From Amoebophrya sp. A120 (taxonomy: Eukaryota; Protista; Dinoflagellata), in the NCBI GenBank assembly GCA_905178155.1, contig CAJINV010000005.1:7432989-7496988 (forward strand): 64,000 bases of DNA, in the 5' to 3' direction. The position numbers and the translations under genes are program-made. Positions 1 to 30,200 of this stretch are shown in pieces. A model generated the notes under the pieces. The model was not told the DNA's origin, ran no database searches, and saw only the letters and a list, made by a program, of their open reading frames with translations. Each line of letters opens with the position of its first letter. Position 1 is the stretch's first letter.

Positions 1-3000
1 ACGACCTGTTGGGAGACCACGACGGGCCAACTACGCAGACCACTTCCCATCAAGCCGCTTCCGGTAGTACACCAGGCGCAGCAGATTCGACGACATCCGC
101 AAATAATGACGACGAGTCACAGTTCACACTGACGGACCAAATCCTGGAGTGGGAACAGTTTGACCAGCTTAAACACAATTCCGTCTACCTCCTGCAGCCC
201 GGTTATGGAAGCGTCAGGTTTGAAATCAACAAAGTTGAATAAATGTATGACCGGGCACGCGTGGTCTTGCGAGCCTGTGAGTCAAGGCCGACAGTGGTCG
301 GTCTATATTTTATGAGCGGGCTCAACCCGCCCATCACGGTAACCAAAACCTGAGTAGCATGAATATGAACCAGGCAGGGGCGCAGTTTTGCGTTGATTTT
401 CCTGCTCTGTGTTTGACATGCTGGGTTTTCAGGGACTTGCGCCCCTGCCGATGGTAGCTTGATTGTGATTCGCCGAGGGTGATTAGAGCTGCTATTTTGC
501 TCTGCCTTAGGCCGATTTATTTCCTCCTGATTTCTCCAGTTCTGGAGAGGGAGAGTTTATTTTCAATCCTAGTTTCGGATTATGATTGGTCTCCCCTGAT
601 TTCTCTCGTTCCGGAGAGGGGGAGAGAGTTTATTTCCAGTCCTAGCTTCGGGCTAGGTTGGATTTCTCCTGATTTCTCCCGTTCCGGAGAGGGAGAGTGG
701 TTTTATTTCCAGTCCTAGTTTCGGGCTAGGTTGGACTTCTCCTGATTTCTCCCGTTCCGGAGAGGGAGAGTGGTTTTATTTCCAGTCCTAGTTTCGGGCT
801 AGGTTGGATTTCTCCTGATTTCTCCCGTTCCGGAGAGGGAGAGTGGTTTTATTTCCAGTCCTAGTTTCGGGCTAGGTTGGACTTCTCCTGATTTCTCCCG
901 TTCCGGAGAGGGAGAGTGGTTTTATTTCCAGTCCTAGTTTCGGGCTAGGTTGGACTTCTCCTATTTTCTCCCGTTCCGGAGAGGGAGAGTGATTTTATTT
1001 CCAGTCCTGGTTTCGGACTAGGTTGGATTTCTCCTGTTTTCTCCCGTTCCGGAGAGGGAGAATTGAGTTTATTTCCGGTCCTAGTTTCGGTCTAGGTTGG
1101 AGTTCTCCAGATTTCTCCCGTTCCGGAGAAGGAGAGTGATTTTGTTTCCAGTCCTAGAAGTTTCGGGCTTGTTTGGATTTCTCGTGATTTCTCCCGGTTT
1201 GGAGAAGAAGGATTTGAGTTCCCGTCCTAGCTTCGGACTACGTTTGATTTCTCCTGTTTATTTTCCCCCGATCTGGAGAAGGGACATTTATTTTCAGTCC
1301 GAGTTGCGGACTATGTCGGATTTGTGCGGTTTTCTCCCGTTTCTGGAGAGGGAGAATGTAACTCCGGTCCTAGTTCCGGACTAACTATGTTGGGCGTCTT
1401 CTATTTTCTCCAATTTTGGAGCGGGGGGCTTCGCCCTAAGTCCGGGGGTTTGAAGTATGCCCCAGATTTCTAGTTTCCAGCTCGAGGGAGGGAGGCTCCG
1501 TCCTGTTTCGGATGATTTCTTTGCGAGTGGCCTCCTATTCCCCCCTTGCGAGGAGAGAGTAGGGAATCCATTTCCCCTTCGGGGTCGATTTTGTTTGATT
1601 TTCGCATCCGTTTGTGATGGCGGAGTGAGTCTCTGCTTGATTTCGCATTTTTATTTGCCGCGCTTTCCCCGTACAAATCGGAGTATCCCCCTTGTGTCTC
1701 TCAGCGAGCGTGTTTCAGTCCTGTTGTTAGTCGGGCTTGGAGCAGTTTATCGCCACACATCTCTCGTGCTGGTGAGGGAGCATCGGCCGCGTTTATGCCG
1801 TTTCTTCGGGGGCTTCTCCACTCTCCCCGCTCGGGGAGTGGGTTTCTCTTGGATTTCCACTTGTGAGGGCAAGAAGTCTATTGCCCCAGGTTCTCCCGGG
1901 TGCGGAGAAGGATTTCAGGGTCTAGCTGCAGGCTGCTTTTCTGCTCTAATTTCCGGCTTCTGCCGGCTTTGGTTTTCTTGTGGGTCTCACTTTATTACTC
2001 ATTTTCGAGATGTGCTTGCCCTTGCAGGCTTCTTTCTCGAGGTCTACTTGCAAGGTTTTGCTCCGTTGTATTCGACATGGGGCGCCATTCTGACCTTGGT
2101 TATTTTCATTTCAACCTTGCTCGGCTTTGTGGCACTGGCGGTTTGAATCCGTTAAACCTAAAAGAGGGCAGGCGCGAGATGGAAAGGCTAGGGATGCGCC
2201 CGGCGCCTCGTGCGCCGGGGTTTTGTTTTCGCGGATTCTTTTGGTTCCGGTTTCCGGGTTTCTGCCGTCCCTAGCTCCACGAGCCGAGTCGAGGGCTTGA
2301 GATGAAATGACCAAGGTCAGCGATGGCGCATGTGGCGCAGGTTTTCCCCTGTCGGGATGTTTTCTTTCAAGGTATTCCGATTCTCCTCTGGAGGGGGTGA
2401 TCTTTCTATATGGAGCTTCGTGCCCCTATGTTGTTTGCCTGTGGTTTTAGGACATCTTCAGATCCCTGTTGTACAGGGTGCGAGGAGTGTTGTGTCAAGA
2501 GTCGATCCGGTTGCATCATTACGCAGCGATGTGGTATCCTCTTCCGAATCCTTTGCCCGCCTTTTTCGGTTCAGGGGGCGAGAAGTGTTAGTCCCTGGAG
2601 AGAGGAGGTCGTCGGGCGTTTTTGTTGGGTGTCTCATGTTTATCGGGCAAACTTTCGTATGTGTGTGTGAGGATTCTTGGCAGGATTGTAGGGGGCACTG
2701 CGCCTTCCCTGCAGGGCTTGGTCCTTTTCTTTCTGATGTCGCAGCATGCGCGTTGACCGGATCACAAGCATTACCTCGAGGTCCATTTGGCATGGTCATG
2801 GGTGTTAGTGTTTCTCGAGGTCCTCACGGCCATCGTCGCTGAGGTGGGTGTTGTTTGCTTACTGCTCCAGAGGCAGTCTTAGTGAGTTCGCGCGCATCTC
2901 CGGAAGGGTGTCGCAGATGACGGCTCCAATCTTTTCATGGGCTCCGGACTCTCTTTCCCTGTGTCATGGTGCCGGGTGGCTCCGAGTTTTCTTTGCACGC

Positions 3001-14500: not shown

Positions 14501-15779
14501 CGCTTTGGCTAGGGTGATATGCAATACAAATTTTCCGTGCATGATGTTGTACAAAATGCATCACAAACTTCACCACCTTGGATGAAAAAGCAACTTGTCA
14601 TGCTGAAAAGGCTTGAAGGAAAAGTTGGTCATGCGGACGCCGCATTTGTACTTCGTTGTGTGCGGGAAATTTACTGTGGATAGGTGAACGACTTGATCAT
14701 CACCACGGAGAATTGGCACTTGGCGGACTACACCCGGCCGTGCGAGCTGGAGTTTCTCCGTATCGCCCCCGAGTGGTTGGCGAACAATCCGAAACGGAAG
14801 TTTCACATCATGCGCAAGACCAGGACGCAGCTACGGCACAAATCCGCGCCGGAAATCATGAAGGCCGTGTCAGATGTGATCGGTGGCGGGGTGAACAACC
14901 CGGTCTTGTTTCAGTTGGAGAAAGGAGACGTTCAGCAGCCCAACGAGATTCGGAACAGCAGTATGAAAAAAATACAAAGTTATTTTCGCACAAGACGTAC
15001 ACCTACAGATAGTACAAAATCAAAATCAAAATGCACCAAAATTTTGGCTCCGCCAATCACCTTCATGAAATAAAGCTATTTGTGGTGCTTACTGAAGTAG
15101 AGAATTAGAGGAAATTTTTTGTCATGCAAACCGCAATCGCACGTGTTCATCGTGTGCGGGAAAAACGTATTTTCTCTGTCTATAACCACGGACATCGGGC
15201 GGAGGTTTGAGTCCCCGATGAAGCTGGATTACGGCGTGCCCGAGAAAATCGAGTTTGAGGACTACATTAAGGACCCAGTGTATCGCAAGAAAAAACTGTT
15301 ATTTCACTGTAAACTTCTGATGCATAGAACGGAACGCAGATGTGTTTGTCTTGCTACACATGCAACACATTGGAATTCTAGCTGTGTTTTCCCTTAGGAA
15401 GCGCGCATGCCAAGTTTTCTTTGTCATGTGTAACAAACTTGTGATGCAGATCTTGCAAAATCACCGCAGTGAAGCAGTTTTTTCGTGGGATACAGTGGAG
15501 AAGCGGGACTACTTCGACTTGAACGTGCGATACGATTACAGCAGCAAAATCTCCGCCGGCGACGTCGATCACCGAGGCGTCAAGTTCCGCGATTTGGTGC
15601 AGGAGCGGAAGGACCGCCGGAGAGCCCGGCGGGAGGCGTTTGGGCATGCGGACCGGGAGACGAGGAGCAAAGCTGCGAAGGGCAGGAAGCAGGCCAATCG
15701 GAAGGGCCGGTCTGTGGACCCGGAGATCGAAGTGCTGGTCAAAGTGGAAAACGCCGCGGCACGGGAATTGCTGGAATAA
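8581..15779 (+). CDS. Hypothetical membrane protein (2 TM helices flanking a Cys-rich loop, long charged C-terminus), 19 exons
   Basis: Spliced frame MANIGAEDVKGAV|ENRQKSDF...YCQFLIVIIMFVVWWHAF...CCPQSCCDW...LWVLAIGVNFLYVMGCILIW...AARELLE*. There are 18 introners, starting at 8619, 8969, 9183, 9498, 9784, 9975, 10353, 10792, 11148, 11522, 11907, 12163, 12639, 13204, 13608, 14518, 14962 and 15281, and the frame stays open across all junctions. Confidence 0.8.
9183..9427. mobile_element. Introner family H (TATGG...AAACGTTACA TIR)
   Basis: TSD CTGGC. Related copies at 41944-42185 and 49444-49699 (TSD CTTCC). Confidence 0.85.
9498..9737. mobile_element. Introner family E (TATGACAGTGCACA..CTCCCCCT TIR)
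   Basis: TSD TCACA. Other copies at 33388-33605, 47618-47848 and 51851-52211. Confidence 0.9.
9975..10135. mobile_element. Introner family D (AAAAAGTGTTAACGTTAACGG TIR)
   Basis: TSD AGTAC. Other copies at 33141-33301 (opposite orientation) and 44777-44937. Confidence 0.9.
15281..15492. mobile_element. Introner family C (TATCGCAAGAAAAAACTG TIR)
   Basis: TSD CAGTG. Other copies at 45704-45916 and 55352-55560; related 10353-10562. Confidence 0.9.
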
Positions 15780-16780
15780 AACTTCTTGTACACCAACGAA
15801 GGTTTATCTTCGTTGTTCGTGCATTTCTTTGCTGGTGTTTGTAGTTCTGATTCTGAAACATATATGTAATCAATGTACGATAAAGTTCTAAAAGTAGTAT
15901 GCGCGACCCAGCCGTAGTAGAATGTAAATTTTCATCCAGGGATAAGAAACTCCGTTGAACCATTTCCGACTGCCTTTTCTTTGCAGTCGACATTTTCTGA
16001 AGAAATCGAAAACTAGACCCCACGATGTGAAATTTTTCTGATGAGAGAATCGTGCGGCGAGCGCATGAGAAAGGGCACAAACAATGAGGTCGGCGAGCAA
16101 TTCTTGCTCACATTCTATTTTTTTGCCGTCTATTTCCCATTGAGGTGACTAGCGACACCTCCCTTTGAGCTAGACTATTTGTCTTCGACCTGTTGGCGTC
16201 ATTTCATTTTCCTCTGCGTTCAGTCACATCCAGAGGCAGTCTCCGACCTGTTGGTGATGAGTTGCCGGCAGGTCTCAGTCATTTAGAGTGAGAGATGCAG
16301 ATGCTTGCCCGAGTAAGTCTGCCGCGAGCGATTTCAGTTACGCTGCGAGCGACATCAGTTCTTCCCGCGCTCTATTTGAGCTTCCGCGCTCGGACCAAGG
16401 GTCTTCATGCTCTTCGAGCTTAGCACGATGAGAGAGACAGAAAAATCGAAAACTAGACCCCACGATGTGAAATTTTTCTGATGAGAGAATCGTGCGGCGA
16501 GCGCATGAGAAAGGGCGCAAGCAATGAGGTCGGCGAGCAATTCTTGCTCACATTCTATTTTTTCCCACCCATTTGATCAGTTGATCCCACCCTACAGTTT
16601 AAAACGTCTTCCGTTCGCTCCGCTCTTCGTCTCGCTTCTGAAACTCAGAGTAGCGATGCTGCTTTCGTGTGCAAGCGGCCCCAGAAGCCAACGGCAGTTA
16701 GACCGTCGTCTGCCGTCCAGAGGAAAGCCCCGTCCGGGCGACATCACAAGTTCCCGAACGCAATTAGCAGACCACGGTGC

Positions 16781-18109
16781 ATGTCAGACCCTTTCGGCTC
16801 CGCTATCCCACAGCAGCCCATACTCCAGTTTGAACCACGAACACGGGCAGCCACGGAAGAAGACGTATTCGCAGCAGCAGTAGCTGCGTGTGGTGACACC
16901 GCATTGGCGGCCAGCAGCATAATCCCCTCTTCCTCCAAAACTTCAGCCCAGTTCGCCCCAGGTTTCTTCAGCGAGGTAGCATCGCACCCGAAAGTATTGA
17001 AGCTGTACAGGGACGCCCACGACCCCAGCAAGCAGAAGTCCAGCAGGCAGAAGGAGGAAGCTTTCGAGCTGGTGGACGACTTCTTCCGTCTCCAAGCTGC
17101 AAAGGAGTTGATCACCAAGCGCCCCGCCTCGGCGACAGAAGATGCAAGGATGAAGTGTTATTTTCAGTTCTGCACGCGGGCATCAGTCCACCCCGGGTTA
17201 GGCTTTCTGAAGAAGCCGTGGCCAATGACGCGGGACCACGCCGTCTACTTCTTCGCCGCTCTGGTGGGCGACGATGCGTCACGGTCGTTCTACGCTACCG
17301 CCGACGACTACCTTTGGTCAGTAGTAGCGAGGCTCGAAGCAATCCCCGGGGGCAGCATCTTGGGACAGGCGGACAAAGTGTTGCTTTCCCAGATTGTCAC
17401 GCGGCAAAAGAGGACTGGAAAATTCGCGCATACGCAGGCGCCCCCAGTCCTCGTCGAGGAGTTGCTAGAAGTAGCGCAACCAGTGTACAAGCGGAAGCAA
17501 CAGTTCGCTGCGGCGTGTTCGATCGGATTTCTTTTCGGATTACGCAAGACCACGCTCGTGAACCACATAAAATTCGGCAACAGCGAAAGATACGCTTCCC
17601 AGCAGGTCCAGTTTGAAGACTCACCCTCCGACGAGGAAGATGGTGGCTCTTACGAAGAAGCCATGCAGAATTTACACCTAGTTTCTCGCGATCATAACTC
17701 ACGCAAACACTTCTCAGGCGATTTTTCATTCAATCGTGCTGCAGGAGTCTTTTGTCTAAATTTAGACGCATATATTCTCAAGTCGAATTACATTCGACGG
17801 GTGTACGTGAAGTGCCTGCGTGGTACTGATTTAGAGGCAATCTGCCCACACGTCACCATACCAATTTTGGACGAAGTCGGATTCGACGACTGGCGACACT
17901 GTTTTGTTGCTGATTTTACATCATTTTTCGGCACCTCCCGCACGCAATCCTTACGCATAGGATGCTTACAGCGCCTTATGTCGTGCCGGCTTGGGAAAAG
18001 TCGTGCTGGTTGTCATCTCCGGTGGAAAACGGAATCTATGATTGAGTATTATAACAGAGGAAATCAGTATCCCCATAACAAATTTGCTGGTCTTTCCTTC
18101 ATTCCGTGA
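16781..18109 (+). CDS. Tyrosine recombinase (DIRS/Ngaro-type)
   Basis: Motifs GFLFGLRKTTL (R), ILKSN (K), RTQSLRIG (HxxR with H replaced by Q), HLRWKTESMIEYY (W...Y nucleophile). The first ATG is at 16781; the ORF track starts at GTG 16667. Intronless. Confidence 0.8.
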   Translation: MSDPFGSAIPQQPILQFEPRTRAATEEDVFAAAVAACGDTALAASSIIPSSSKTSAQFAPGFFSEVASHPKVLKLYRDAHDPSKQKSSRQKEEAFELVDDFFRLQAAKELITKRPASATEDARMKCYFQFCTRASVHPGLGFLKKPWPMTRDHAVYFFAALVGDDASRSFYATADDYLWSVVARLEAIPGGSILGQADKVLLSQIVTRQKRTGKFAHTQAPPVLVEELLEVAQPVYKRKQQFAAACSIGFLFGLRKTTLVNHIKFGNSERYASQQVQFEDSPSDEEDGGSYEEAMQNLHLVSRDHNSRKHFSGDFSFNRAAGVFCLNLDAYILKSNYIRRVYVKCLRGTDLEAICPHVTIPILDEVGFDDWRHCFVADFTSFFGTSRTQSLRIGCLQRLMSCRLGKSRAGCHLRWKTESMIEYYNRGNQYPHNKFAGLSFIP

Positions 18110-18453
18110 CATTCATTCCACACGTGACGACTTCTAACATTATGCTGAGCAAAAAATTTTTTGAAATGATAACTCCGCTTGCGCTCCCACTCGGAGAGTA
18201 TTTACTTGCAAGCACCTTGGCGCTGTTCCTGCAGTTGCAGTTGTTCCCTTCAAACTTGCCATTCCACTGAGAGTCCTCAGATTTCTTCTTCTCTTCATCA
18301 GTTCAAGAGCGAGTGCGATTCAAAGTTCATTTGCAAAGAGTTTTGCAAACCTGGCACACGCAGCATGAGAGAGACACTTCTTCGCCGTCTTCTTGTTTTC
18401 ATTTCAATTTCACCAAAATCACAGAAGAGCATTTACCACTAAAAATTCTCAAC

Positions 18454-20349
18454 ATGTCGCTGAACGCTGGTGCCATGGCGCAGGTCGCCGGAGGCCCGGG
18501 TGCCGGCGTCCTCGGCGCTGACCCGCTAGTCCCTGCCGCGCCAGGACCTGTTCCGCCGCCGTTACCGGTGCTCCCGCCAGGATTAGTCATCAACCCCGCT
18601 GCAGGTGCCGGCGCAGGAGGAGGCGATGGCGCAGTCGCACCAAAAGCGAATGCGCCAGTCGGCCCGAAGGCGAAAGCCGGTGGAGGAAAAGGACCCATCA
18701 ACGTGAAGGGACCAGTCATCCCGAAAAAGGGCGGAGGCAAAGGAGGTGTAGTTGCCCCACCAGTCGTCCCCCCGGCTTTACCCGCGGTAGCACCAGTTGT
18801 CCCCCCACCGGGCCCAGTCGTGCCGGTTGCTGGACCCATCATTCCCCCAGTCGCACCGCTGATTGCTCCGCCAGTCCCACCACCCGCACCGCCAGCTGTG
18901 GTCGGAGCACCACCAGTCGCAGTGGCGCCACCAGTTGTCGCGGCACCGCCTGCGGCCGCAGCGCCACCAGTTGCGGGAGGAGCACCACCAGTGCCCGGAG
19001 CACCACCGGTCCCAGCCGGTCCGGCACCGGTTGTCGCCCCCGGCATGAACATGAACATGCAGGGAATCGACCCGGCGTGGCAGGCATACTACGCCCAGCA
19101 GTACTATTTTCAAACCATGATGCAGAGCAACTACCTCGCACAGCAGAGCGCCAACATGCAGAACATGCAGCATGGTTTTAACGGCTTCTTCAACCAGTTC
19201 GGTGCTGCTTTTCCCGCGGCAAACGATCCCTTCCACCCACAACAGCCGGATACCGAGCTGGAAGTTGCTGCGTACGCGGATTCTGCAGACCACATCCCGC
19301 GCAGTGATCGAGTGGCGCTCGAGTCCTGCAAAGCCATCACCGCGATGGTGAGGGATAAGTCGCTGCACTCCGCCGGGCATGTTGGGGCGAAGTATCTGTA
19401 CAAGAATCAGATCCAGACTTTGGATACGAAAAAAGTGGAAAAAACAGTCCCGATGAAACCCAGTACGCTCATCCGGTATTTAGCCGTCTCCGGGAAAGTC
19501 CCGGCCGTGTTCGAAGATTTCGAAACGGCGAGCCGGTTAGTGTTGTTCGTGGACGACCACATGAAAGCGGTGCCGCCACACACATCAAAGGAGAAGTGGG
19601 AAAGGATCATCACAGGAAAATTCTACGAAGTGCTATCGTCTTCCTGCGATGCCCTCGCTCCTGCTTCCACGGTCATGATCGACGGAGTCCCGACCGCAAC
19701 CACATATCAAGACCGGGTGTACAACTTCTTTTCCCTGCCGGAATCGAATGCGGCGGGATTTAAATACAAGTTGAACAACCTCTGCACCATGACGCATCAA
19801 ACTGCGCACATGTTCAACGACGACGAAATCAGGAGCATGCTCGGATTGCCAGACACCCCGGACTCCACGGGCCGTGATCGCTCCAGATCCCCCCGCCGTA
19901 CCGGTGGCGGAACCCACTCTACGAACCAGGAAGCGGGGGAGAAAGCGATGAAAGTCTGCTGGCACTACCTGAAGTGCGCGCCCTGTTCCAACACGGAGAT
20001 CAAGGATCGAAGCGGTTGCGTGTCATGCGAGAAAGGGGGATTGCGCCCTACGTCCAAAACCCAATTGACCAAAACGCAGTTCAAGAAGATCAAACGCACC
20101 GCGTTAGGTCGTTCGGCGTTGAAAGACATTGGTTATTTTAGTTGGATGGACGGTAATATTTACAAGGGTAGCAATCTGACTAAGTATTTCCCGAACCGCG
20201 CTTCCTCCTCGACATCCAAGTCCCAGAAGAAGGGAGGCGGCAAAAACCAGGGCGGTTCCAAAAAATCAACTACCACCAGTAAACCGGAAAAGGAGGAATC
20301 CGAGCACGACTCCGCTTCTGAGAAAGAGGAGGAGAAGCAAGAAGTCTAA
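18454..20349 (+). CDS. Pro/Ala-rich gag-like protein with Cys cluster and basic tail
   Basis: Intronless ORF inside the SDR element. PAV-rich N-terminus, RDRSRSPRR, CWHYLKCAPC...CVSC cluster, Lys-rich end. The gag role is inferred from position and composition. Confidence 0.65.
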   Translation: MSLNAGAMAQVAGGPGAGVLGADPLVPAAPGPVPPPLPVLPPGLVINPAAGAGAGGGDGAVAPKANAPVGPKAKAGGGKGPINVKGPVIPKKGGGKGGVVAPPVVPPALPAVAPVVPPPGPVVPVAGPIIPPVAPLIAPPVPPPAPPAVVGAPPVAVAPPVVAAPPAAAAPPVAGGAPPVPGAPPVPAGPAPVVAPGMNMNMQGIDPAWQAYYAQQYYFQTMMQSNYLAQQSANMQNMQHGFNGFFNQFGAAFPAANDPFHPQQPDTELEVAAYADSADHIPRSDRVALESCKAITAMVRDKSLHSAGHVGAKYLYKNQIQTLDTKKVEKTVPMKPSTLIRYLAVSGKVPAVFEDFETASRLVLFVDDHMKAVPPHTSKEKWERIITGKFYEVLSSSCDALAPASTVMIDGVPTATTYQDRVYNFFSLPESNAAGFKYKLNNLCTMTHQTAHMFNDDEIRSMLGLPDTPDSTGRDRSRSPRRTGGGTHSTNQEAGEKAMKVCWHYLKCAPCSNTEIKDRSGCVSCEKGGLRPTSKTQLTKTQFKKIKRTALGRSALKDIGYFSWMDGNIYKGSNLTKYFPNRASSSTSKSQKKGGGKNQGGSKKSTTTSKPEKEESEHDSASEKEEEKQEV

Positions 20350-21255
20350 AGATTCAGTTATTGTTTTATTGTCACACCAAAATGTGTCCTATCTTTGGTT
20401 TTTTTTACCTCGCGCGAGTGTCTGTAAAAACGAAAAGTCAGCTCTACATCAAAAATGTCAGATTACCCGTTGCTTCATGCCTACATCAGTAGTGCCATGA
20501 TTCTACTTTGTGATGCTCAGTTTCATCGCTATTTGCTTTTCGGCATACGCCACCATGTAGCGATTTCAGTTACGCTGCGAGCGACATCAGTTCTTCCCGC
20601 GCTCTATTTGAGCTTCCGCGCTCGGACCAAGGGTCTTCATGCTCTTCGAGCTTAGCACGATGAGAGAGACAGAAAAATTTGACCCTCATCCAAAAGAAGA
20701 GCACGAGCATTTGACTCACGACCCATCTTGTAAAAAAATAAACCGTTCTTGTAAACCAATGAATGTGGTGCTCCTGCTCTCAGTGTACGTAAAATTGCTT
20801 GATGTGCTGAGGATAACAAACACTGCACGTGGTCAGACTCAGACACTTATCTGTTTGGATAACGAGACAGAGTATGTTGGAGGTCGATGTGTTCCTCGCA
20901 AAGGTGGATCTCCGTACTTTGGGATCAGAAGTAAGCTAACGAATTATACAAAAAGCCACTCACTACATTTCTTTTTTGATGTCTTTCGTTGTGGTTAAAT
21001 CGGTAGACCACGCGTCACCAGGAGGACTAATTGCTTTTATTCGACAGAACAACATCGTACCGCAGTAGATCAAGGGCGATTAGAGCGCCTGCAGAATTTT
21101 TTGCAACTACGCTAAGTGCATCAGCAGCGTCTCCTGGCCGTGTGGGCGGAGTACTAAGTTGGTGCTAAAAGCTTTAGAGGACTTTGGTGCCAGCTAACGG
21201 CAAGATCATCCTCGAGTGCAGCAGTCCAATCTCGACCTCCACAACGCGCAACCTA

Positions 21256-24200
21256 TGTTGGTCAAAATGTTGGCGTCCCTGGTGTTCGTCGCATCACCGG
21301 GCATGATTCTTTTGCAGCTTTTGTGCTACTCCTGCTGCTTTTACAACATCAGCACGCCTAACAATCTCGTATTCGTCACCGCGACCAAGCTCCAAAAGAA
21401 GTCCGCGACTTCTTCATCTGTCGGCAAGAAAACTACGAGCGTCAGCCTGGACGACTTCGACTTCTCAGGTAACGTGCCTACTGCAAGTAGAACTCGAGCA
21501 GGGACGCCGGCGGGTCGTACTGAACTGCAACAGGACGCGACGAAACCCCAGCCGCGTGGCCGAGCGAACGCTGCAGGAAGTGAAGAGGAGATGACCCCGT
21601 CGTCGCAACAAGCTGCAGCGACATCAACGAATCCGCCTTCGTTTCTCATCCCACCGCCAGGCCGAGACTTTTCGTTTGACGCCGAGGACAATGATGTGGT
21701 TGGTGATGTTGCAAGAACGTCTCAGCTTCACGGTAGCAGCAGTGACGTGCTGATTGACATTCCGCTGGAGGAGATCCCGGAGGGGATTGCGGAGGGCACG
21801 ACGGAAATAAATGGCGCAGAAGAGCTTGTCCCCCCTAGCAGCTGCGGGACATCAGCTGCTGGTGGCCGCGGCCGCAAGGGAACGAGCCTTTCTACTACCA
21901 TTTTTGGAAAGACCATGAGCGGCACGACTTCGAGTCAGGACGAACACGAGGCCGTAGCGAGGGCAGGAGCAGCCTCGAAGACGTGTACAACTGCATCTGC
22001 AGCAGTAGATGGCAGCAATAAGAAGGGCACATCAGCGAATTCAAAAAGCCTGTTCCAGAACCTACTTGACAAGGCAGCACGGGAGTACGACTACGCGGTT
22101 ATGTATGCACTGCAAAAGTATCGAACTAGGATAAAAAATCGCATGACAAATTTCCTCAGCATGAAAAATCATGAACAAATCTGTAGTGCGGATTTAACTC
22201 GGCAAAGAAATTTGCAATGCTTATCTGGGAGCTCCACTTCAATACGGAGCCAAGCATGACAAATTTTTGGGCTCCTGTGTGTTGCGTATTCCGCATGGCA
22301 AACTGCGTTTTTGCATGACAGGTAAGGGGACAGCTTTGTGCCCATGCATCACAGATTCTTGAATCATGTCAGACATGCATGACAAATGTAGCAATCTTCC
22401 AGACCCAGACATTTTTACACTTGATAAGTCATGGAGTTTAGCAATACAAATTGCATCTTGCCAGACCCGGACATCTCTGCGCTTGAACTTGATACATAAC
22501 GAAGCGCATAGGATAAGAGTTTCCCCGTCGGGCCCACATACCGCATCCCCACATTCCAGGCATCATGAGGAAACTCGCAGTCGCATAAGTAGAAAGCACG
22601 TAGCACATTTTCAAGAGCGTGAATGCTAGAAAACAGCTGCATCCGCACTCGCCCTATCGATCCATGAAGGTTTTTTATCATGCAGCTGCACGCGTGCGCC
22701 TGGGCGCATTGGGGATTCGACGCACGCGTGCGCGGTATTTCATGCAAAGAGGCGTTTTTCAGAATGCATGTTTATTCAGAGTGTATTGCCTGCTCCTGCA
22801 CGCGTGCACCCGGGCGCATTGGAGATCTAGCGCACGCGTGCACGGATTCCCATGCATGCTGCGCAATTTTTTCTACGATACCTTGGCGAACTGGTAATTT
22901 TGCAGATACTATCAAATGCAAATATGTCTGAGTCTGGAAAGTTGGAACTTGTCATGCTGGTCTTGCATTCTTGTGAAATCTGTGCCTCATGACCAACAAA
23001 AGTGGCAGCCTCGCGCGTGGTTATACAAGAAATGGATGCACACGCGCAGCCCTTGGAATGCCAGAAAAGTAATTTTTTTTGCAACAAAATAAATAATGAG
23101 TTACATCTTTTTACTGCAGAGAAAAAACATTTTATTCACGTGCATGACATAATTGCCAACCGAATTTTCACGGTGTGAAGACAATCAACGACGAAGAAAC
23201 GCGGGCGGTGTGAACACTGGCCATCTTGCATGTCAAGCAGAATCTAGGTGGGATTCAGTGTTTCTTAGTCGCAATCAATCTATGGTGACTATCGTCACAG
23301 CCTGTGGGGAAAAATTTAGGGTTCCAAACAACACACAAATTCTGACGTCTCAGTCACGGGGGTAAAGCATGAAAGTTCAAATTTGTTCTAATCGCCCTAA
23401 ATTTATGAGAAATCCGATCAACCATCGTTGATCATCACTAGCTTACAGTGTGGGATTAGAATGAACTTCATTTTTGGTTCATTTGTATGAGCATGCTGAT
23501 TTCACATTGGGTCCAAATTTGAACGACAAATTTAGAGCCTGATTTCAATGAGCATTCAATTTAGGTCGTAGGGAATTTGCTTGGCTTATGATCCTGGTGG
23601 ATTTCATATCTTGCCTAACATTCCCCCTTCCGAATGAACACTAAATCATCGAAATGAATCAGATGAGATGACTTTGTGTGAAATTCGCATCAATCAATCC
23701 TAGAGATTATTGAAGTCAGCAAAGTGGGCTTTCGCAAATACTTCATTAGCTTTTCTTGAGGGAGCTTTGAAGATTTGAATATACTTCTCGCCTGGAAGTG
23801 GCTTTGTCAATCCATCCGCTAGATTGATATCCGTGTTTACATAGCACAAGTCTTTTACGTAGTCTCGTACTAGGTGTAGTCGAAGACTCATGTGCTTGGA
23901 TCTTTTCGTGGCTACGGTTGTCTGACTCAACGCAAGCGCGGACTTGTTGTCGTTGAAGATCAACGGTAGAGATCCTGACTCTTGTTCTGAAAACCAGTTC
24001 AAATATCCTTGGTCCATAGTCATCCTTACACAGTCATACATCGCGCAATACTCGGCTTCCATTGTTGACGTAGCTCGAATCGATTGACGTTTCGACTTCC
24101 AACAGATGGGAACTCCGCGTCGATATAGGATTGTTCCTGACGTGGATCGAAAACTTACAGAACATCCTGCAAAATCTGCATCGCAGAAAGCAATAGTGTC

Positions 24201-27200
24201 TCTGTATTCCTTGTTTTCTAGCTCTGCGGCTTTTGTGTAGATTTCTTTGAACTTTTTCTCTTGCTGCTTGCTGTATTCCAATCCTTGCGATTTGGTTCCT
24301 TTCAAATACGCCAGAATACGCTTAGCATCTTTTACCGTTTGGTCGGTTGGACTAGCTACCTGCGTCGCTACTCTTTGTACTGCGAATGCGATATCAGGCC
24401 GGGCAACGCAACTGATATACAACATTCCGCCTACTAGCGATCTTATCGGAAATGTGGAATTCGACGGCGAGTCCAAGTCTGCGTGGGAATTTGGTAAACA
24501 TGGGGAAACTACTGCGCGGCAGTCCTTCATGTGAAATTTCTCAAGCAGCTTATCAATTGCGTCTTCGCAAGTGATTTTCATGACTCTCTTTTTCGCGTTG
24601 AAGGTCAACTTTGCGCCGAGAAGGTCGCGGATCTCATTGCCTTCCTTGTCATATTCTGCGAGAATTTCTTTTCCTGGGAACTCTGCTAAAATTGCATTCA
24701 TTTCTGCAGCGACAAGGTCATCATCTTCGCCTGAGATAATGTTGTCATCTACGTAAACTGCTAGCCAGAGCTCTTGCTCTTTTCCCTGTTTGTCTTTTGC
24801 AAACTTCTTGAACAAACCTGGTTCGTGTTCGGATACAACCCAGCCTAACTTCTTGAGTCTGCCGGAATATTCGTCATACCAGCGGCGTGGGCTGATCTTC
24901 AGACCGTATAACGACTTTAACAGCCTGACAACATCGCCTTTTTCTTTGTTCTTGCTCCAGCTGTTGTGCTTGGGCAGGCGACATAACGCGATCTCGTCAC
25001 CTAGAGCTGCACGCACAAACGCATTTGAAATATCGAACTGTCTAACTTTCCATCCGCGTGCTGCTGCTTCAACAAGTAAATACCTGTTAGCGGCATGGCT
25101 CACAGTTGGGCTGTATATTTCTCCTTGAAGAGATAGCTTTTGCCTGTTTCCTAGTGCTACGAGACGACACTTGTAGCGTCCGTCTCTCTTCTTCGTGTAG
25201 ATGCATACCGTCGGGATAATCTCTAACTTATCACCCATCTCTTTGATGTCTTCTGCGGTTGCATGCCTCCACGTTTTTGCTTCTTCTAGCGCTAGGCGTT
25301 CTTTCGTATCTGACTCGATCCATTTGATTGCGTCAGGACTTTCCAGACACTTGGCCCAAGTGTGCTGCAAGCCAAAGAGGTAAGGAGTTTCGTCCTCCTC
25401 TAATTCATGACGAATCTGGAATATAGCTTCTGCTTCTTTTTCAAATTCCATCGGAAGATCTTTCAAAAGGTCAGATGACGACACAAGATTGACTTTCTGC
25501 CTTTTCTTTGCTCGAGGGCCACGACTTTGGCCTTTGTCGTTGCGTTCTTTGCGCTTTTTCTTGTCATGCCCTCGGCCCTTCTTGCGAAGTTTCTTTCGTG
25601 TAGGTCCTTCAACGAGGATCCTAGGCGCTTCTTGTGTCTCGTTCTCTTTTTCATCAGCATCAACTGTATTAGACTTTCTTTTTCGATTTCCATTCTCAGC
25701 TTTCTTTTTCTGCTTCGGGGATTTTTCAGGCGCCTCCTCTGAAAACAAATCGAGCCAATCCTGATTAGGGTTTTGATTTTCCTCGCCCCCTTCCTCAGGT
25801 TGCTCACCCCCTTCGAAACTCTTGCCCTCGTCGTTTTCGACGGTTTCTTTTTCCTTCGAACTGCGTTTGTCCGCATCTTCTTCATCTTTCGAACGATCGG
25901 TCCTCGGAGCGTCCTGACCACGACTGCTTTGATCATGATCTACAGCGGGCACATTCGGCTCTACGAGCTGCGAACTATCACCCAGACGCGCCGGATTCGG
26001 AAAATCAATTAACAACTTGTCAGCGTCCGGCTTCAGATCATCTATCTTGCTGACCAGCACTGATTCATCAAACTTACAACACTTCACCTCGTGGACTCCG
26101 AAGCGGATTTTGGAGCTTTTCTTACATCGACCATCTGCGGACCACATGCCTACCAGGTATGTAGAATTTTCTTGGGCGTAGCCTAGAAAGATTCCACGGG
26201 TAAACCGGTCTTCAAGCTTCGACTTCTGTGAGTGATCCTTCGCGTATACCAAGCATCCGAAACGTCGGAAATACTTGATGGAAGGTTTTCTTTTGAAGCG
26301 TTTTTCAAATGGCGACTCGCCTCCTTTGGCTGTAGGGGTTCGGGCGAATATGTGGGAGAAAGTGCGTGCTGCATAACTCCACATACGCTTATCGACTCCG
26401 ACCATCATTGCCCTCACTCCGTTCTGGTGAGTTTGATTGTATCTTTCAACTTTTCCATTTTCTTGTGGTTCGTATGGAGCTGAGTAGTCAGTATGAATCG
26501 GCGGGGACTGTTTCTGTGCTGTCTTTTTCCAAGTGCTACCTGGTTCCTTGAACTCTTTGGCATTGTCGGATCTCACTCTTTTCGGTGGTCCCTCTTCATT
26601 TATCCAGACCTGCAGCTTTGCGCCTGCTTCTGCTTTGCTTTTGCAGATGAAAGAACGAGGCCAGCTGGTTGCTTGATCGATGGCATTTAGCACCCATCTT
26701 TGCGACCAGTAGTCAGGTTCCCACGGTCCAGTAAAGTCAAAATCAACTTGGTCATTGAATTTTTCAACTTTGTAGCATTCTTTCTTCGCTTTTGCATGTT
26801 GCGCGCCTTTGCTTTTCGCGAGATCGCAGGCAGGACATCGGACTACTATTCCTGGTAGACTACGATGTCCAGCACGCTGATGATCAAGAAGCATTTTCTC
26901 AGCCTTTGTCATCATAGTGGACTCTGTCTCGATCTCTTCGCACAACAAACCCTTTTCACCTGGATCTTCGTTGAACCCAAGTGCCACGGCCGGCAGCTTG
27001 GTTCCGATCCCTTTGTGAAGAAAAATTCTCTTTCCTGTCTTCCTACTTTGCAAGTAGTTGCCCCCTTCGTCGAAAACAACTCTATAGCCTTCTTTCTTCA
27101 GTTGCTCGACACTGAGGAGGGTCTGTGGAAGGAATGGATGGAATATTGCACGCTTGCAACCAAGTGCGTTTGGTTTCAATGTGCCAAAATATCCAGGGCC

Positions 27201-30200
27201 ATCCAACTCTTTTCCGTCTGCTACAGTTATTCGCACTGGATTACTGTCGTCCCAAGATTCGAAAATCTCTGGTCGGCCCGACATGTGACTTGTTGCGCCA
27301 CTGTCGCAAATTGCATCATCGACACAATTAAAAGCTGTTTCATGATTTCGGTGCTGCTCGTCCTTTTTATTCCGATGAGCATCGTTCGCCTCGCGCACCT
27401 TCCTCAATGCTGATTCGCGAACGCTGTAGAGGTGTGCTAGCTTTCTTGCTGTGTACTCGGGCGAATGATTTTGCTCGCTTTCTTTTGCTACGATTGAAAA
27501 TACTGCATCTTGTGACAGATTGCATTTCTCAACTCGTTCGGCTTTGGACGCATCCGAAACATGAGATCGAGGAAATAAAATCTTACGGATTTCGCGATCG
27601 GTCGACTCAAGAGCCTGGACTTGTTGTGTCATATTTGCCATCTCTGGGGTTGCAAATTGCTCAGCAAGCTCCAGCTCTGCTCTTTTTCGTTTTCCTTTCA
27701 GCTGTCTCGTTGGACCAGCTGCATCATTGGTACAAATTTCATCTTCATTCTTATCGAGATTCGAGAATAAATCATCCATATCGATTAATGATGAAGAATC
27801 TGGATTGAAGATGTCAAGCTTGCTGTCGAACACACATTCATCTTCTTCAAAATGACTTGTAGTCACTGGTGGTTCATCACCAGGTGGTTGTTCTTTTTGT
27901 GGGGGGTTCTTTTGGGGGGGTATTTTTGTTAAAAATTTAGTTGAAAAACATCGCGAATAATTTGTATTATAACATCGAGTTTTCGTCAGCCGTAAGAATA
28001 GTTTTCTTACTTTTTGTAGTTTGTGTAACAAGCTACTTTTCTTCGAAACACCATCTAAGACTCAGTATTTCCTACCCTTCTTTCCTTTTCCTTTCTTACC
28101 TCCACCCTTCGGCTTGTCGTTGCCCTTGCGAACAGTATTCGTGTTGTTACCCTTACCGGAATTCTTATTGGAAGACTTGTTATTGACCTTATTGCCGTTT
28201 TTGTACCAGCAATCCTTGGTGTTGTGGGATTCCGAATTGCAATTCGAACACCACTTGGAATCTCCTGCGTAATTGGCCGCATGACTGTCGTCATTGCTAC
28301 CAGCAGTGTGATTCTGGGTCAAGTTCGGATTTTGCGCGATCAGATTCGCAGCGGCTTGCTGGATCAGACTCGGCATCTCTTTCTTCAACATATTGGAGAA
28401 CATCTGCTTCTCACGGTTCTTCTGAACGTGATCCGGGCGCGGGCCATGCTGGTTGCGAGAATTCTTGTTGCGGACCAGATTAGCTTTGTGCTTCGTGGTC
28501 TCTCCGTTGCTAGACAGAGCGCGTTCTTCCTCGACCATATGATTCTTGGTTTCTTCGAAACTGAATCCATTAGCCAAGGCACGCTTGTTGCACTCATCGA
28601 ATTCCTCGCGCATGTTCCCGAAGATACAGTGATAGCGTAACTCTTCGGCCGTAACTTTAGCGCCCAGTTTGAAATTCCAGAAGTTCTTCAGTTTGTCAAT
28701 ATGTTCTTCCACGGTTTCATCTTCACCCTGCTTGCTGTTGAAATATTCCTTGATCAACATGCGGCGGGCACCGGCGGTCTGCGGGTTAGCCTTTTCCTTG
28801 ATCTGAAGCATCAACCAGACTACACACGCGTCAGCCCCGGGCTCTTCCTGAATGTCCTGAGCTTTGGCTCGGGCCTTTCCGGTTAAGGATTTGAATACTG
28901 TACCATACAACTTCGCGTAAGCTGAGCGCACTTCGGTTGTGTAGGTGGGCCAGAAGTCGTTTTCGTGTTTGCCGTCAGCAACCCACTGGTCGCAGGCTAA
29001 CTGATCGACCTCATCCCACTTGTCCATGCAGACTTTTCCTTCTAAGTCCTCTTTGAACTGGGGACCGATGTTCAACGAGAACGCCTGAGCGATCACGCTA
29101 CCCTTGAACGTCTGGAAGTCCTTTCCAGTTTCTCCCTCGTGTTCCGCGTCGTACAGCATTCCGACGGTGCCGGAAGTGCTCGGACGATGGTCATCACCCG
29201 GCGCCCCCATCTTTTCACGATGAGCACGCGCGTCGCGGTTGTGTCGTCTGTTGTACTCGGTACACGCGTAGGCGGCTACCTGTACAAGAAATTTGCAATC
29301 GAATTCAGATGGTATTCAGCATTTCAAATGCGATCATCTTGTTGAATTCACGATGCAATTACAGACAAAATCAGAATTACGCTTAGACTTCTATTTTCAA
29401 AAACCGATGTAATTCAGTACCTTTTTCGTGGCCTGCTGTCGGGTCCTTGCTCTTGTACCGGCCTGCTGCTCGGTACGTTAAATCCGCCGCCCAAAACTGT
29501 AATAGTTTTTGTTGGGGAGGATTAACATGCGATTTTTGTGCTCTTGCCATGTGTGCTCGCATTCAAAATTTCCAATGATTTTAGAAAACAGACCGAAAAT
29601 AAGTACAATTTTAGTACCTGTCTTGTTCCTCGCTCGATGCTTCGGCAAAGGTTACGGGCTTCGTAGCGCGCACCTTTGGTCGCTTTGTCTCTCTTGCACC
29701 TGTGTAGGTGTATGATTACAAATTCTCTCTTACTTTCAAACAGCCTCTGACCGTGTATCAGCAATTGATATCACGGCAGCAAATCACCACTGTTGGTTGA
29801 TTTGAACTCGGTGGCTGGGGGTTATTTTGCCTAAATTTTTAGTTCAAATTCAAACAAAAATTCTATTCAAAAACACTACCAAAAATTCAAAATTTTCTTT
29901 ATTTTTCTTCGTGCTTTTAGTACCTTCCTGCGGGTCTTGGTGTGGTTGGTGGTTTGGTTCTGGTCCTGGCTTGGTAGGTGTTGTCGTGTTGCGGGGGGAC
30001 CAGGCTTGGTAGTTGTTGTCGTGTTGGCACTGGTCGTGTCTTGTGTCAGCGCTCAAGGCTGTGCCGTTAGAATGTCAACCGAATTTTCACGGTGTGAAGA
30101 CAATCAACGACGAAGAAACGCGGGCGGTGTGAACACTGGCCATCTTGCATGTCAAGCAGGATCTAGGTGGGATTCAGTGTTTCTTAGTCGCAATCAATCT

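What the first reader, a model, noticed from the sequence alone, without database searches (positions are those of the whole stretch)
16003..20678. RT-less tyrosine-recombinase element with split direct repeats and ORFs reversed relative to the canonical layout
Seen in sequence: the layout is X1-spacer-Y1-X2-[YR ORF]-[Pro-rich/Cys-cluster ORF]-Y2. The internal Y1X2 junction is a copy of the circle junction, and an AAAT core is shared by both outer boundaries (reconstructed empty site ...ctgaagAAATttgacc...). Both ORFs are intact and the repeats are nearly identical, which suggests a recent insertion. There is no room for RT/RNase H. Established: PAT/Ngaro DIRS-order retrotransposons read A1-gag-RT/RH-YR-B1-A2-B2, and Cryptons carry YR without split repeats. 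Here the repeat triplet lies upstream of the ORFs, YR precedes the gag-like ORF, and the HxxR His is Gln. Inference: this is either a semi-autonomous retroelement that supplies its own integrase and capsid and borrows RT in trans, or a new circular-intermediate DNA element.
Basis: partly seen in the sequence, partly recalled or inferred. Interest (0 to 1): 0.85.

Follow-up and report, generated by a model that had tools for sequence, protein, structure and literature searches.

The report
RT-less recombinase retroelement, new family layout
A 4.7-kb jumping gene, likely in a marine Amoebophrya parasite, carries the split end-repeats and the recombinase of a rare retrotransposon class but no reverse transcriptase, shares an unusual gene order with relatives in another strain, and likely borrows the missing enzyme from a longer relative in the same genome.

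Summary
Split direct repeats X (119/121 identical) and Y (120/120) share an AAAT core. ORF1 is a tyrosine recombinase (AlphaFold pLDDT 80.5; Z 13.1 to Cre), and there is no RT.

New here: the order recombinase then ORF2 is a family trait. Three of 9 related gene models from another Amoebophrya strain run from the recombinase into an ORF2 homologue.

The layout is less exotic than claimed. A1-B1-A2-B2 reads the same on both strands, a recombinase downstream of the internal junction is published for nematode Pat1, and Gln for His is shared (6 of 37) and tolerated in Cre. ORF2 as capsid is unproven.

The copy looks single. A diverged paralogue lies on a 7.3-kb contig with about 3.3 kb more downstream of its recombinase, which is room for RT; that RT was not seen.

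Best reading: a helper-dependent, RT-less member of a split-repeat YR retrotransposon family that I did not find described. A one-off deletion, a wholly RT-less family and a DNA-circle element stay open. This scan had no look-alike by sequence, though it noted gene-less split-repeat elements in other genomes.

The parts
16003..16123 (+). X1 (A1), left terminal repeat; begins with the AAAT crossover core (16003-16006)
16124..16326 (.). 203-nt unique spacer between X1 and Y1; no similarity to the element interior
   Evidence: local score 21 and 19 against shuffle means of about 21.7
16327..16446 (+). Y1 (B1), internal copy of the right terminal repeat
16443..16446 (+). AAAT core of the internal Y1/X2 junction, a copy of the predicted circle junction
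16443..16563 (+). X2 (A2), internal copy of the left repeat; candidate promoter region for the recombinase transcript (inferred)
   Evidence: RNA-type contigs begin at 16598-16631
16781..18109 (+). Tyrosine recombinase, 442 aa: core-binding plus catalytic domain; R255, K334, Q389-x-x-R392, W415, Y424
18454..20349 (+). ORF2, 631 aa: Pro/Ala/Gly/Val-rich N-terminus (aa 1-200), conserved helical core (about aa 263-470), Cys cluster, Lys/Ser/Glu-rich tail; gag-like role unproven
19957..20046 (+). Cys cluster C502-x8-C511-x13-C525-x5-R531. Five other family members have His at or next to the last position (CCCH-like spacing, no Pfam match)
20559..20678 (+). Y2 (B2), right terminal repeat; ends with the AAAT core (20675-20678)

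Best explanation
This is a recently inserted 4,676-bp element with split direct repeats, an intact tyrosine recombinase gene and no reverse transcriptase, and it likely moves as a helper-dependent DIRS-order (PAT/Ngaro-type) retrotransposon whose RNA would be copied by an RT made by a longer relative. Shown: the repeats, the core, the YR fold, the lack of RT, and the conserved YR-then-ORF2 order. Inferred from the DIRS model: (1) a near-full-length RNA is made from X1 to Y2 (or the reverse) and lacks the extreme ends; (2) a borrowed RT copies it, and the internal Y1/X2 junction templates the missing ends and the head-to-tail joint; (3) the element's own YR recombines the AAAT core of the circle with an AAAT in the host, leaving one AAAT at each end. 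X2 likely drives a separate YR/ORF2 message, and ORF2 is likely the nucleic-acid-binding, gag-like packaging protein. The likely helper is a family member of about 8 kb with RT/RNase H somewhere between its YR and its right repeat; no such RT was seen.
For: Split repeats and core. YR: AlphaFold model pLDDT 80.5, pTM 0.71; VIA-align Z 13.1, rmsd 3.8 over 255 residues to Cre, with the top 10 rows all tyrosine recombinases or integrases; catalytic R and K in 37 of 37 family sequences, Y in 32 of 37. Family order: AT5.2 gene models P0007, P0010 and P0071 each join a YR (32-39% identical) to an ORF2 homologue (E 5e-12, 3e-07, 5e-37); that is 3 of the 9 AT5.2 YR models identified. Single copy: the interior is one unbroken 4,055-nt contig at depth 42 against flanks at 43-45, with X and Y at 73-77. 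Longer sibling: a 7,302-nt contig at depth 44 carries a diverged YR, starts 1,532 nt upstream of the shared C-terminal match (window contig: 1,543) and runs 5,737 nt past the stop (window: 2,479), 3,258 nt more. YR P0063 lies on a 7,557-nt record. DIRS-1 RT acts in trans on an RT-less construct, and the internal junction copy (ICR) is essential for DIRS-1 retrotransposition (PMC7192593 passages).
Against: No RT was seen in any relative: 0 of 47 family proteins have an RT Pfam match, and none of the 3 fused gene models runs on into an RT. The 7.3-kb contig could not be read, its extra 3.3 kb may be host DNA (the run has records up to 95 kb), and its orientation is my reading of the table's coordinates. 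The helper's YR is diverged (only 21-33-nt stretches align), so cross-mobilisation is assumed. One copy cannot show that the RT-less form ever moved. ORF2 has no fold match to a capsid (best Z 6.0 on a pLDDT-48 model). No YR tree against DIRS, PAT, Ngaro, VIPER or Crypton references was built.
Confidence: 0.5

Rival explanations
1. One-off deletion derivative: an ordinary autonomous family member of about 8 kb lost RT/RNase H during or after its last insertion, and the RT-less form has never moved.
For: Single copy. The paralogue's surplus of 3,258 nt is about the size of an RT/RH gene. Internally deleted copies are reported for Cafeteria Ngaro (PMC8547959 passages) and Xenopus Ngaro (bioRxiv 2021.08.05.455354 passages).
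Against: No near-identical parent in the DNA run even at 80% likeness, although the repeats are 98-100% identical. Both ORFs are whole, and no RT remnant was found in 12 frames. A related element's YR and ORF2 sit on separate records of 2,464 and 2,106 nt, together about this element's size.
Confidence: 0.25
2. The whole family lacks RT: a semi-autonomous lineage that keeps its own integrase and packaging protein and borrows RT from unrelated retroelements.
For: YR and ORF2 are kept together across about 60% amino-acid divergence. No RT was seen next to any of them. Other RT sources exist, for example an intact copia element 2.5 kb away.
Against: Two relatives lie on records of 7.3 and 7.6 kb with room for RT. 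Gene models cannot show an antisense or separately called RT. The split-repeat families in the passages I read all have RT-bearing members.
Confidence: 0.13
3. DNA element of Crypton type: a 4,236-bp unit X2-YR-ORF2-Y2 that excises as a circle at AAAT, with a 444-bp miniature derivative (X1-spacer-Y1) inserted head to tail at its left end, which mimics split repeats.
For: Cryptons have 4-6-bp terminal direct repeats, sometimes a second gene, and non-autonomous derivatives that share their ends (PMC3212892 passages). No RT. Lengths.
Against: X and Y show only about two-copy depth, so the only miniature would sit against the only full copy, whereas Crypton derivatives outnumber their parents. 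The spacer is unrelated to the interior. The paralogue's contig breaks at the same offset upstream of its YR, as if it too had a repeated X. A DNA element has no need for an internal junction copy (inference).
Confidence: 0.12

Closest known systems
PAT-like retrotransposons: nematode-form Pat1, Kangaroo, and the Daphnia 'novel' PAT (PMC4157794, passages and section 7)
   Same: A1-B1-A2-B2 split direct repeats and a YR. In nematode Pat1 the internal repeats lie upstream of YR, as here on +. In the Daphnia form an inverted YR goes with internal repeats next to the 3' repeat, as here read on -.
   Different: No RT, RNase H or methyltransferase. Only 203 nt lie between A1 and B1. A second, Cys-cluster ORF follows YR on the same strand.
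Ngaro (Cafeteria, PMC8547959; Xenopus, bioRxiv 2021.08.05.455354) and VIPER/TATE (PMC6681497); passages read
   Same: Split direct repeats; YR in place of a DDE integrase; poorly conserved gag-like ORF. Amphibian Ngaro has an extra ORF after YR, and VIPER's SIRE derivative is A2-short spacer-B2.
   Different: There the ORFs lie between A1 and B1A2B2 and include RT/RH. Here both ORFs lie between A2 and B2 (or antisense on the other strand), and the YR has no Pfam match.
SymbioDIRS-Dnmt3 of Symbiodiniaceae (PMC5890265, passages)
   Same: Dinoflagellate YR retrotransposons with A-coding-B-A-B repeats; two structures differ in the order of the recombinase and Pol ORFs.
   Different: They encode Pol with RT, RNase H and a DNMT. 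Relationship of their YR to this one was not tested.
Crypton DNA transposons (PMC3212892, passages)
   Same: YR without RT; 4-6-bp direct repeat at both ends; optional second gene.
   Different: Cryptons have no long direct repeats; this element has two 120-bp repeat pairs and an internal junction copy.
TOC1 of Chlamydomonas (recalled; named in earlier scan notes, not read here)
   Same: Split repeats, no RT, moved in trans.
   Different: Recalled as lacking its own YR; this element encodes an intact YR and a second conserved protein.

Membership tests
Split-repeat YR retrotransposons (PAT-like, Ngaro, VIPER; order DIRS) | Split direct repeats in the order A1-B1-A2-B2 | tested here: met
Split-repeat YR retrotransposons (PAT-like, Ngaro, VIPER; order DIRS) | Internal junction equals the head-to-tail junction, with a short shared core and no target-site duplication | tested here: met
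   AAAT at both ends and at Y1/X2; no empty allele was available to confirm
Split-repeat YR retrotransposons (PAT-like, Ngaro, VIPER; order DIRS) | Tyrosine recombinase with catalytic R-K-H-R-H/W-Y | tested here: met
   Z 13.1 to Cre; R255, K334, Q389, R392, W415, Y424; Gln tolerated in Cre, not in Flp
Split-repeat YR retrotransposons (PAT-like, Ngaro, VIPER; order DIRS) | RT/RNase H gene in this copy | tested here: not met
   so it is not filed as an autonomous member
Split-repeat YR retrotransposons (PAT-like, Ngaro, VIPER; order DIRS) | RT/RNase H gene in some member of the family | not testable with these tools
   No genome held; related loci not found; room for RT on 7.3- and 7.6-kb records
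Split-repeat YR retrotransposons (PAT-like, Ngaro, VIPER; order DIRS) | Gag-like capsid or nucleocapsid ORF | tested here: inconclusive
   ORF2 conserved with a CCCH-like Cys cluster; low-confidence model and no clear fold or family match
Split-repeat YR retrotransposons (PAT-like, Ngaro, VIPER; order DIRS) | YR groups with a named clade in a phylogeny | not tested
PAT-like (nematode Pat1 / Kangaroo) | Internal repeats upstream of the YR gene | tested here: met
   layout from PMC4157794
PAT-like (nematode Pat1 / Kangaroo) | gag, RT/RH and methyltransferase between A1 and B1 | tested here: not met
   only a 203-nt spacer there
Crypton | YR without RT, with a 4-6-bp direct repeat at both ends | tested here: met
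Crypton | No long terminal or internal repeats | tested here: not met
   two pairs of 120-bp repeats; met only if the tandem-miniature reading is right

The most novel reading that the evidence does not exclude
A lineage of split-repeat elements that permanently gave up RT but keeps its own tyrosine recombinase and a zinc-finger packaging protein under selection, in a YR-first order downstream of the internal junction. It would be a retroelement that brings integrase and capsid and borrows only the polymerase, or else a split-repeat element that has switched to a DNA-only circle route.
Probability: 0.22. Interest if true: 0.8.

Novelty: new variant of a known kind. Interest (0 to 1): 0.5.

Why it matters
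YR retrotransposons are among the least understood mobile elements. In the DIRS-1 paper the primer is unknown and the recombinase's specificity untested. This family puts its genes on the other side of the internal junction. That suggests the junction works as a position-independent template and that A2 can act as an internal promoter. An intact RT-less copy with its own recombinase separates the copying step from the integration step, and gives a compact test substrate: a 4-bp core, two 120-bp arms and one 442-aa enzyme. It also flags a YR clade that Pfam misses and that the Amoebophrya genome paper's main text does not mention. If long members turn out to carry RT, the finding shrinks to a new family layout plus one non-autonomous copy.

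Tried and rejected
No whole genome is held, so no genome-wide copy search was possible.

Related-locus scans found nothing: metagenome contigs, viral contigs, prokaryote genomes.

Pfam: no family for either ORF. Weak, sub-threshold Phage_integrase matches in 4 of 47 relatives. A single-sequence search with the ORF2 core found nothing; a 3-sequence profile was needed.

ORF2 fold: model pLDDT 48, best Z 6.0 with no capsid among the 50 rows, no viral match at E<=0.001, none in PDB sequences, Atlas features only to unnamed clusters at 0.91. None of this excludes a gag fold.

The CCCH finger in distant YR model P0048 looked like ORF2's Cys cluster by eye, but 80 of 1,000 shuffles scored as well and hhalign gave probability 0.3; rejected as evidence.

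Hairpin at the Y1/X2 junction: z -1.98 and -1.77 as DNA, -0.78 and -0.58 as RNA, and -0.01 for the whole 237 nt; weak, not used. No loxP-like symmetry around the core (best 5 of 20 pairs). Rfam: 0 matches.

No empty-site joint in run X1; contigs drop rare forms, and X1 may be the window's own source. No RNA holder was on record. The RNA-type contigs do not cover 16172-16597, which is no evidence either way.

The original PAT and kangaroo papers are not held. Earlier-finding searches by sequence gave nothing.
Full report
1. What is in the sequence. The element spans 16003-20678 (4,676 bp). X1 (16003-16123) and X2 (16443-16563) match at 119 of 121 positions; Y1 (16327-16446) and Y2 (20559-20678) match at 120 of 120. 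In 100 shuffles the longest exact repeat was 14 nt. Y1 and X2 overlap by AAAT, and AAAT also opens X1 and closes Y2, so the internal junction copies the head-to-tail joint. A 203-nt spacer separates X1 from Y1 and resembles nothing in the interior. Two open + strand ORFs follow X2: 442 aa and 631 aa. There is no RT: no minus-strand frame exceeds 233 aa, the motif scan found only two hits in the window, both outside the element, and 0 of 12 other frames matched RT or RNase H. The host is likely an Amoebophrya, inferred from named relatives and the dense introner-like repeats.

2. ORF1 is a tyrosine recombinase. Pfam misses it. A profile search returned 61 proteins at E<=0.001, the query included. 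With 42 sequences AlphaFold gave pLDDT 80.5 and pTM 0.71. Foldseek's best PDB rows are Cre, XerH and lambda Int (probability 1.0, best E 0.001). VIA-align gives Z 13.1, rmsd 3.8 over 255 residues to Cre, covering both domains. Among the 37 of 61 sequences long enough to keep (24 dropped), R255 and K334 are invariant, R392 is in 35, W415 in 34 and Y424 in 32. The box II His is His in 29, Gln in 6 and Tyr in 2. [quoted passage not shown] So the Gln is a subclade trait and no sign of decay. The window's protein falls in one clade (SH 1.0) with six others, of which four are named Amoebophrya gene models and one clusters with such models. That tree has no reference elements, so it does not place the family.

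3. ORF2 and the gene order are family traits. I looked up the sources of 19 of the 60 other YR hits. With cluster members this gave 9 YR gene models from Amoebophrya AT5.2. Three of them (P0007, P0010, P0071) run from the YR into an ORF2 homologue (E 5e-12, 3e-07, 5e-37). P0071 is, block for block, YR P0003 followed by ORF2 P0068, which lie on separate records of 2,464 and 2,106 nt. These fusions are probably gene-calling artefacts, but they show that YR precedes ORF2 on one strand. Free ORF2 homologues are 26-28% identical over the core. They share a helical region and a Cys cluster of roughly C-x8-C-x11/13-C-x4/5-H; the window's copy has Arg at the last position. The long Pro-rich N-terminus is private to this copy. 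The spacing recalls CCCH fingers (my recollection; no Pfam match). The fold tests were inconclusive. Gag-like genes of VIPER and TATE are also assigned mostly by position (PMC6681497, first part and passages), so a gag role is plausible but unproven; amphibian Ngaro shows that an ORF after YR can be an accessory gene.

4. Copy number and a longer sibling. In run X1 (kind not on record; unspliced and even, so likely DNA, and possibly the window's own source) the interior is one 4,055-nt contig with no other letters at depth 42. The flanks are at 43-45 and X and Y at 73-77. The tool warns that depth is no copy number, but the pattern fits one copy with each repeat present twice. At 80% likeness only one further contig was laid: 7,302 nt, depth 44, sharing three to four short collinear stretches of the YR gene. 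Reading its minus-strand coordinates as the other rows imply, it begins 1,532 nt upstream of the shared C-terminal match (window contig: 1,543), as if it broke at its own X2. It runs 5,737 nt past the YR stop against 2,479 nt, a surplus of 3,258 nt. In this window the two longest gaps between 182 introner-like words (5.4 and 5.1 kb) are in or span mobile elements, and the longest other gap is 3.0 kb. This mildly favours the surplus being element DNA, but the run also has contigs up to 95 kb. YR P0063 lies on a 7,557-nt record. Both sizes fit autonomous elements (Cafeteria Ngaro are 6-7 kb). I could not read either record, so RT in the family is inferred only. Against it, 0 of 47 family proteins carry RT and none of the 3 fused models extends into one.

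5. RNA. Runs X3-X6 are one sample of one study and are only guessed to be RNA. An X3 contig skips the 217-nt introner at 15276-15492, which supports the guess. Their contigs cover much of the YR gene from 16598-16631 to about 18150 and ORF2 in patches. Three cross the right boundary and end at 20772-20838, and an upstream host contig runs into X1 and the spacer as far as 16171. The insertion lies 224 nt after a host stop codon. One reading: the element sits in that gene's 3' UTR, X2 drives YR, and ORF2 RNA reads through Y2 to the host's old 3' end. Contigs give no strand, start or level, so this is inference.

6. Mechanism. In the DIRS model the transcript lacks the extreme ends, the internal junction copy restores them, a circle forms and YR integrates it at a short core. 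For DIRS-1 the ICR is essential, RT works in trans, and most cDNA is linear and single-stranded (PMC7192593, passages). That logic needs the order A1-B1-A2-B2 but not a fixed place for the genes, and the order reads the same on both strands. A DNA-only element regenerates its joint by excision and needs no internal copy, which is my main ground for the RNA route (inference). I put 0.50 on a helper-dependent RT-less member of a family with RT-bearing long members, 0.25 on a one-off deletion, 0.13 on a wholly RT-less family and 0.12 on a Crypton-type unit with a tandem miniature.

7. Against the literature. Nematode Pat1 and Kangaroo carry the internal repeats between MT and YR, a Daphnia PAT has an inverted YR with its internal repeats next to the 3' repeat, and the authors call such features homoplastic (PMC4157794, passages and section 7; PMC3266345, passages). 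Symbiodiniaceae DIRS shuffle the order of YR and Pol (PMC5890265, passages). Cryptons lack long repeats (PMC3212892 and PMC13465315, passages). I did not find in print a split-repeat element with YR followed by a Cys-cluster ORF between A2 and B2 and no RT, nor a YR retroelement in Amoebophrya (searches). The main text of PMC7789003 has 0 hits for 'DIRS' and 'recombinase'; PMC12130899 passages did not describe one. The library lacks most subscription papers. I did not see the original PAT and kangaroo papers, the Goodwin/Poulter reviews, Repbase or any supplements, and any of these could hold such a family. PMC4738411 (passages) was not informative.

8. Verdict. It works like a PAT/Ngaro-type element, but it is not filed as an autonomous member because RT is absent. 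It is a new variant of a known kind: a YR clade and gene layout that I did not find described, with one intact RT-less copy. Interest 0.5. If the family proves RT-less throughout (0.22, including the DNA-only route), the interest is 0.8.

Noticed in passing
window 23154 to beyond 30372: Ty1/copia LTR retrotransposon on the - strand with open gag (28062-29315) and pol (23700-28061, RVT_2 E 1.5e-28) separated by one stop codon; LTRs start at 23154 and 30073 and are about 98% identical.
   Followed up: partly
window 16077 and 16081: The only two X1/X2 differences are both A (X1) versus G (X2), 4 nt apart; too few to call editing or RT error.
   Followed up: no
window 16040, 16427, 16480, 20659: The 9-mer GATGAGAGA occurs 4 times in the 64-kb window, once in each of X1, Y1, X2 and Y2, and CACGAT also lies in both repeats; candidate recombinase-binding motif shared by the two arms.
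   Followed up: partly
window 16186 and 16244: An 11-nt word is repeated twice within the spacer and nowhere else on + in the window.
   Followed up: no
window 15276-15492: A 217-nt inverted-repeat introner is skipped in an RNA-type contig with non-GT-AG ends; related repeats are scattered through the window and are nearly absent from this element and the copia element.
   Followed up: partly
window 524-1355: Tandem array of a 73-nt unit, 11.4 copies.
   Followed up: no
proteins P0048 and P0052: Distant YR relatives whose records end in a CCCH zinc finger (E 8e-07) or a weak CW finger; possibly more YR-then-finger elements, but homology to ORF2 was not supported.
   Followed up: partly
proteins P0063, P0064, P0065: Two transcript-derived proteins are identical to YR P0063 for about 277 residues and then end differently, which suggests spliced or truncated YR messages.
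   Followed up: no
run X5, joint 17791 to 20532: One contig at depth 2 joins the YR gene to the tail, skipping 2,740 nt; probably an artefact, not followed.
   Followed up: no
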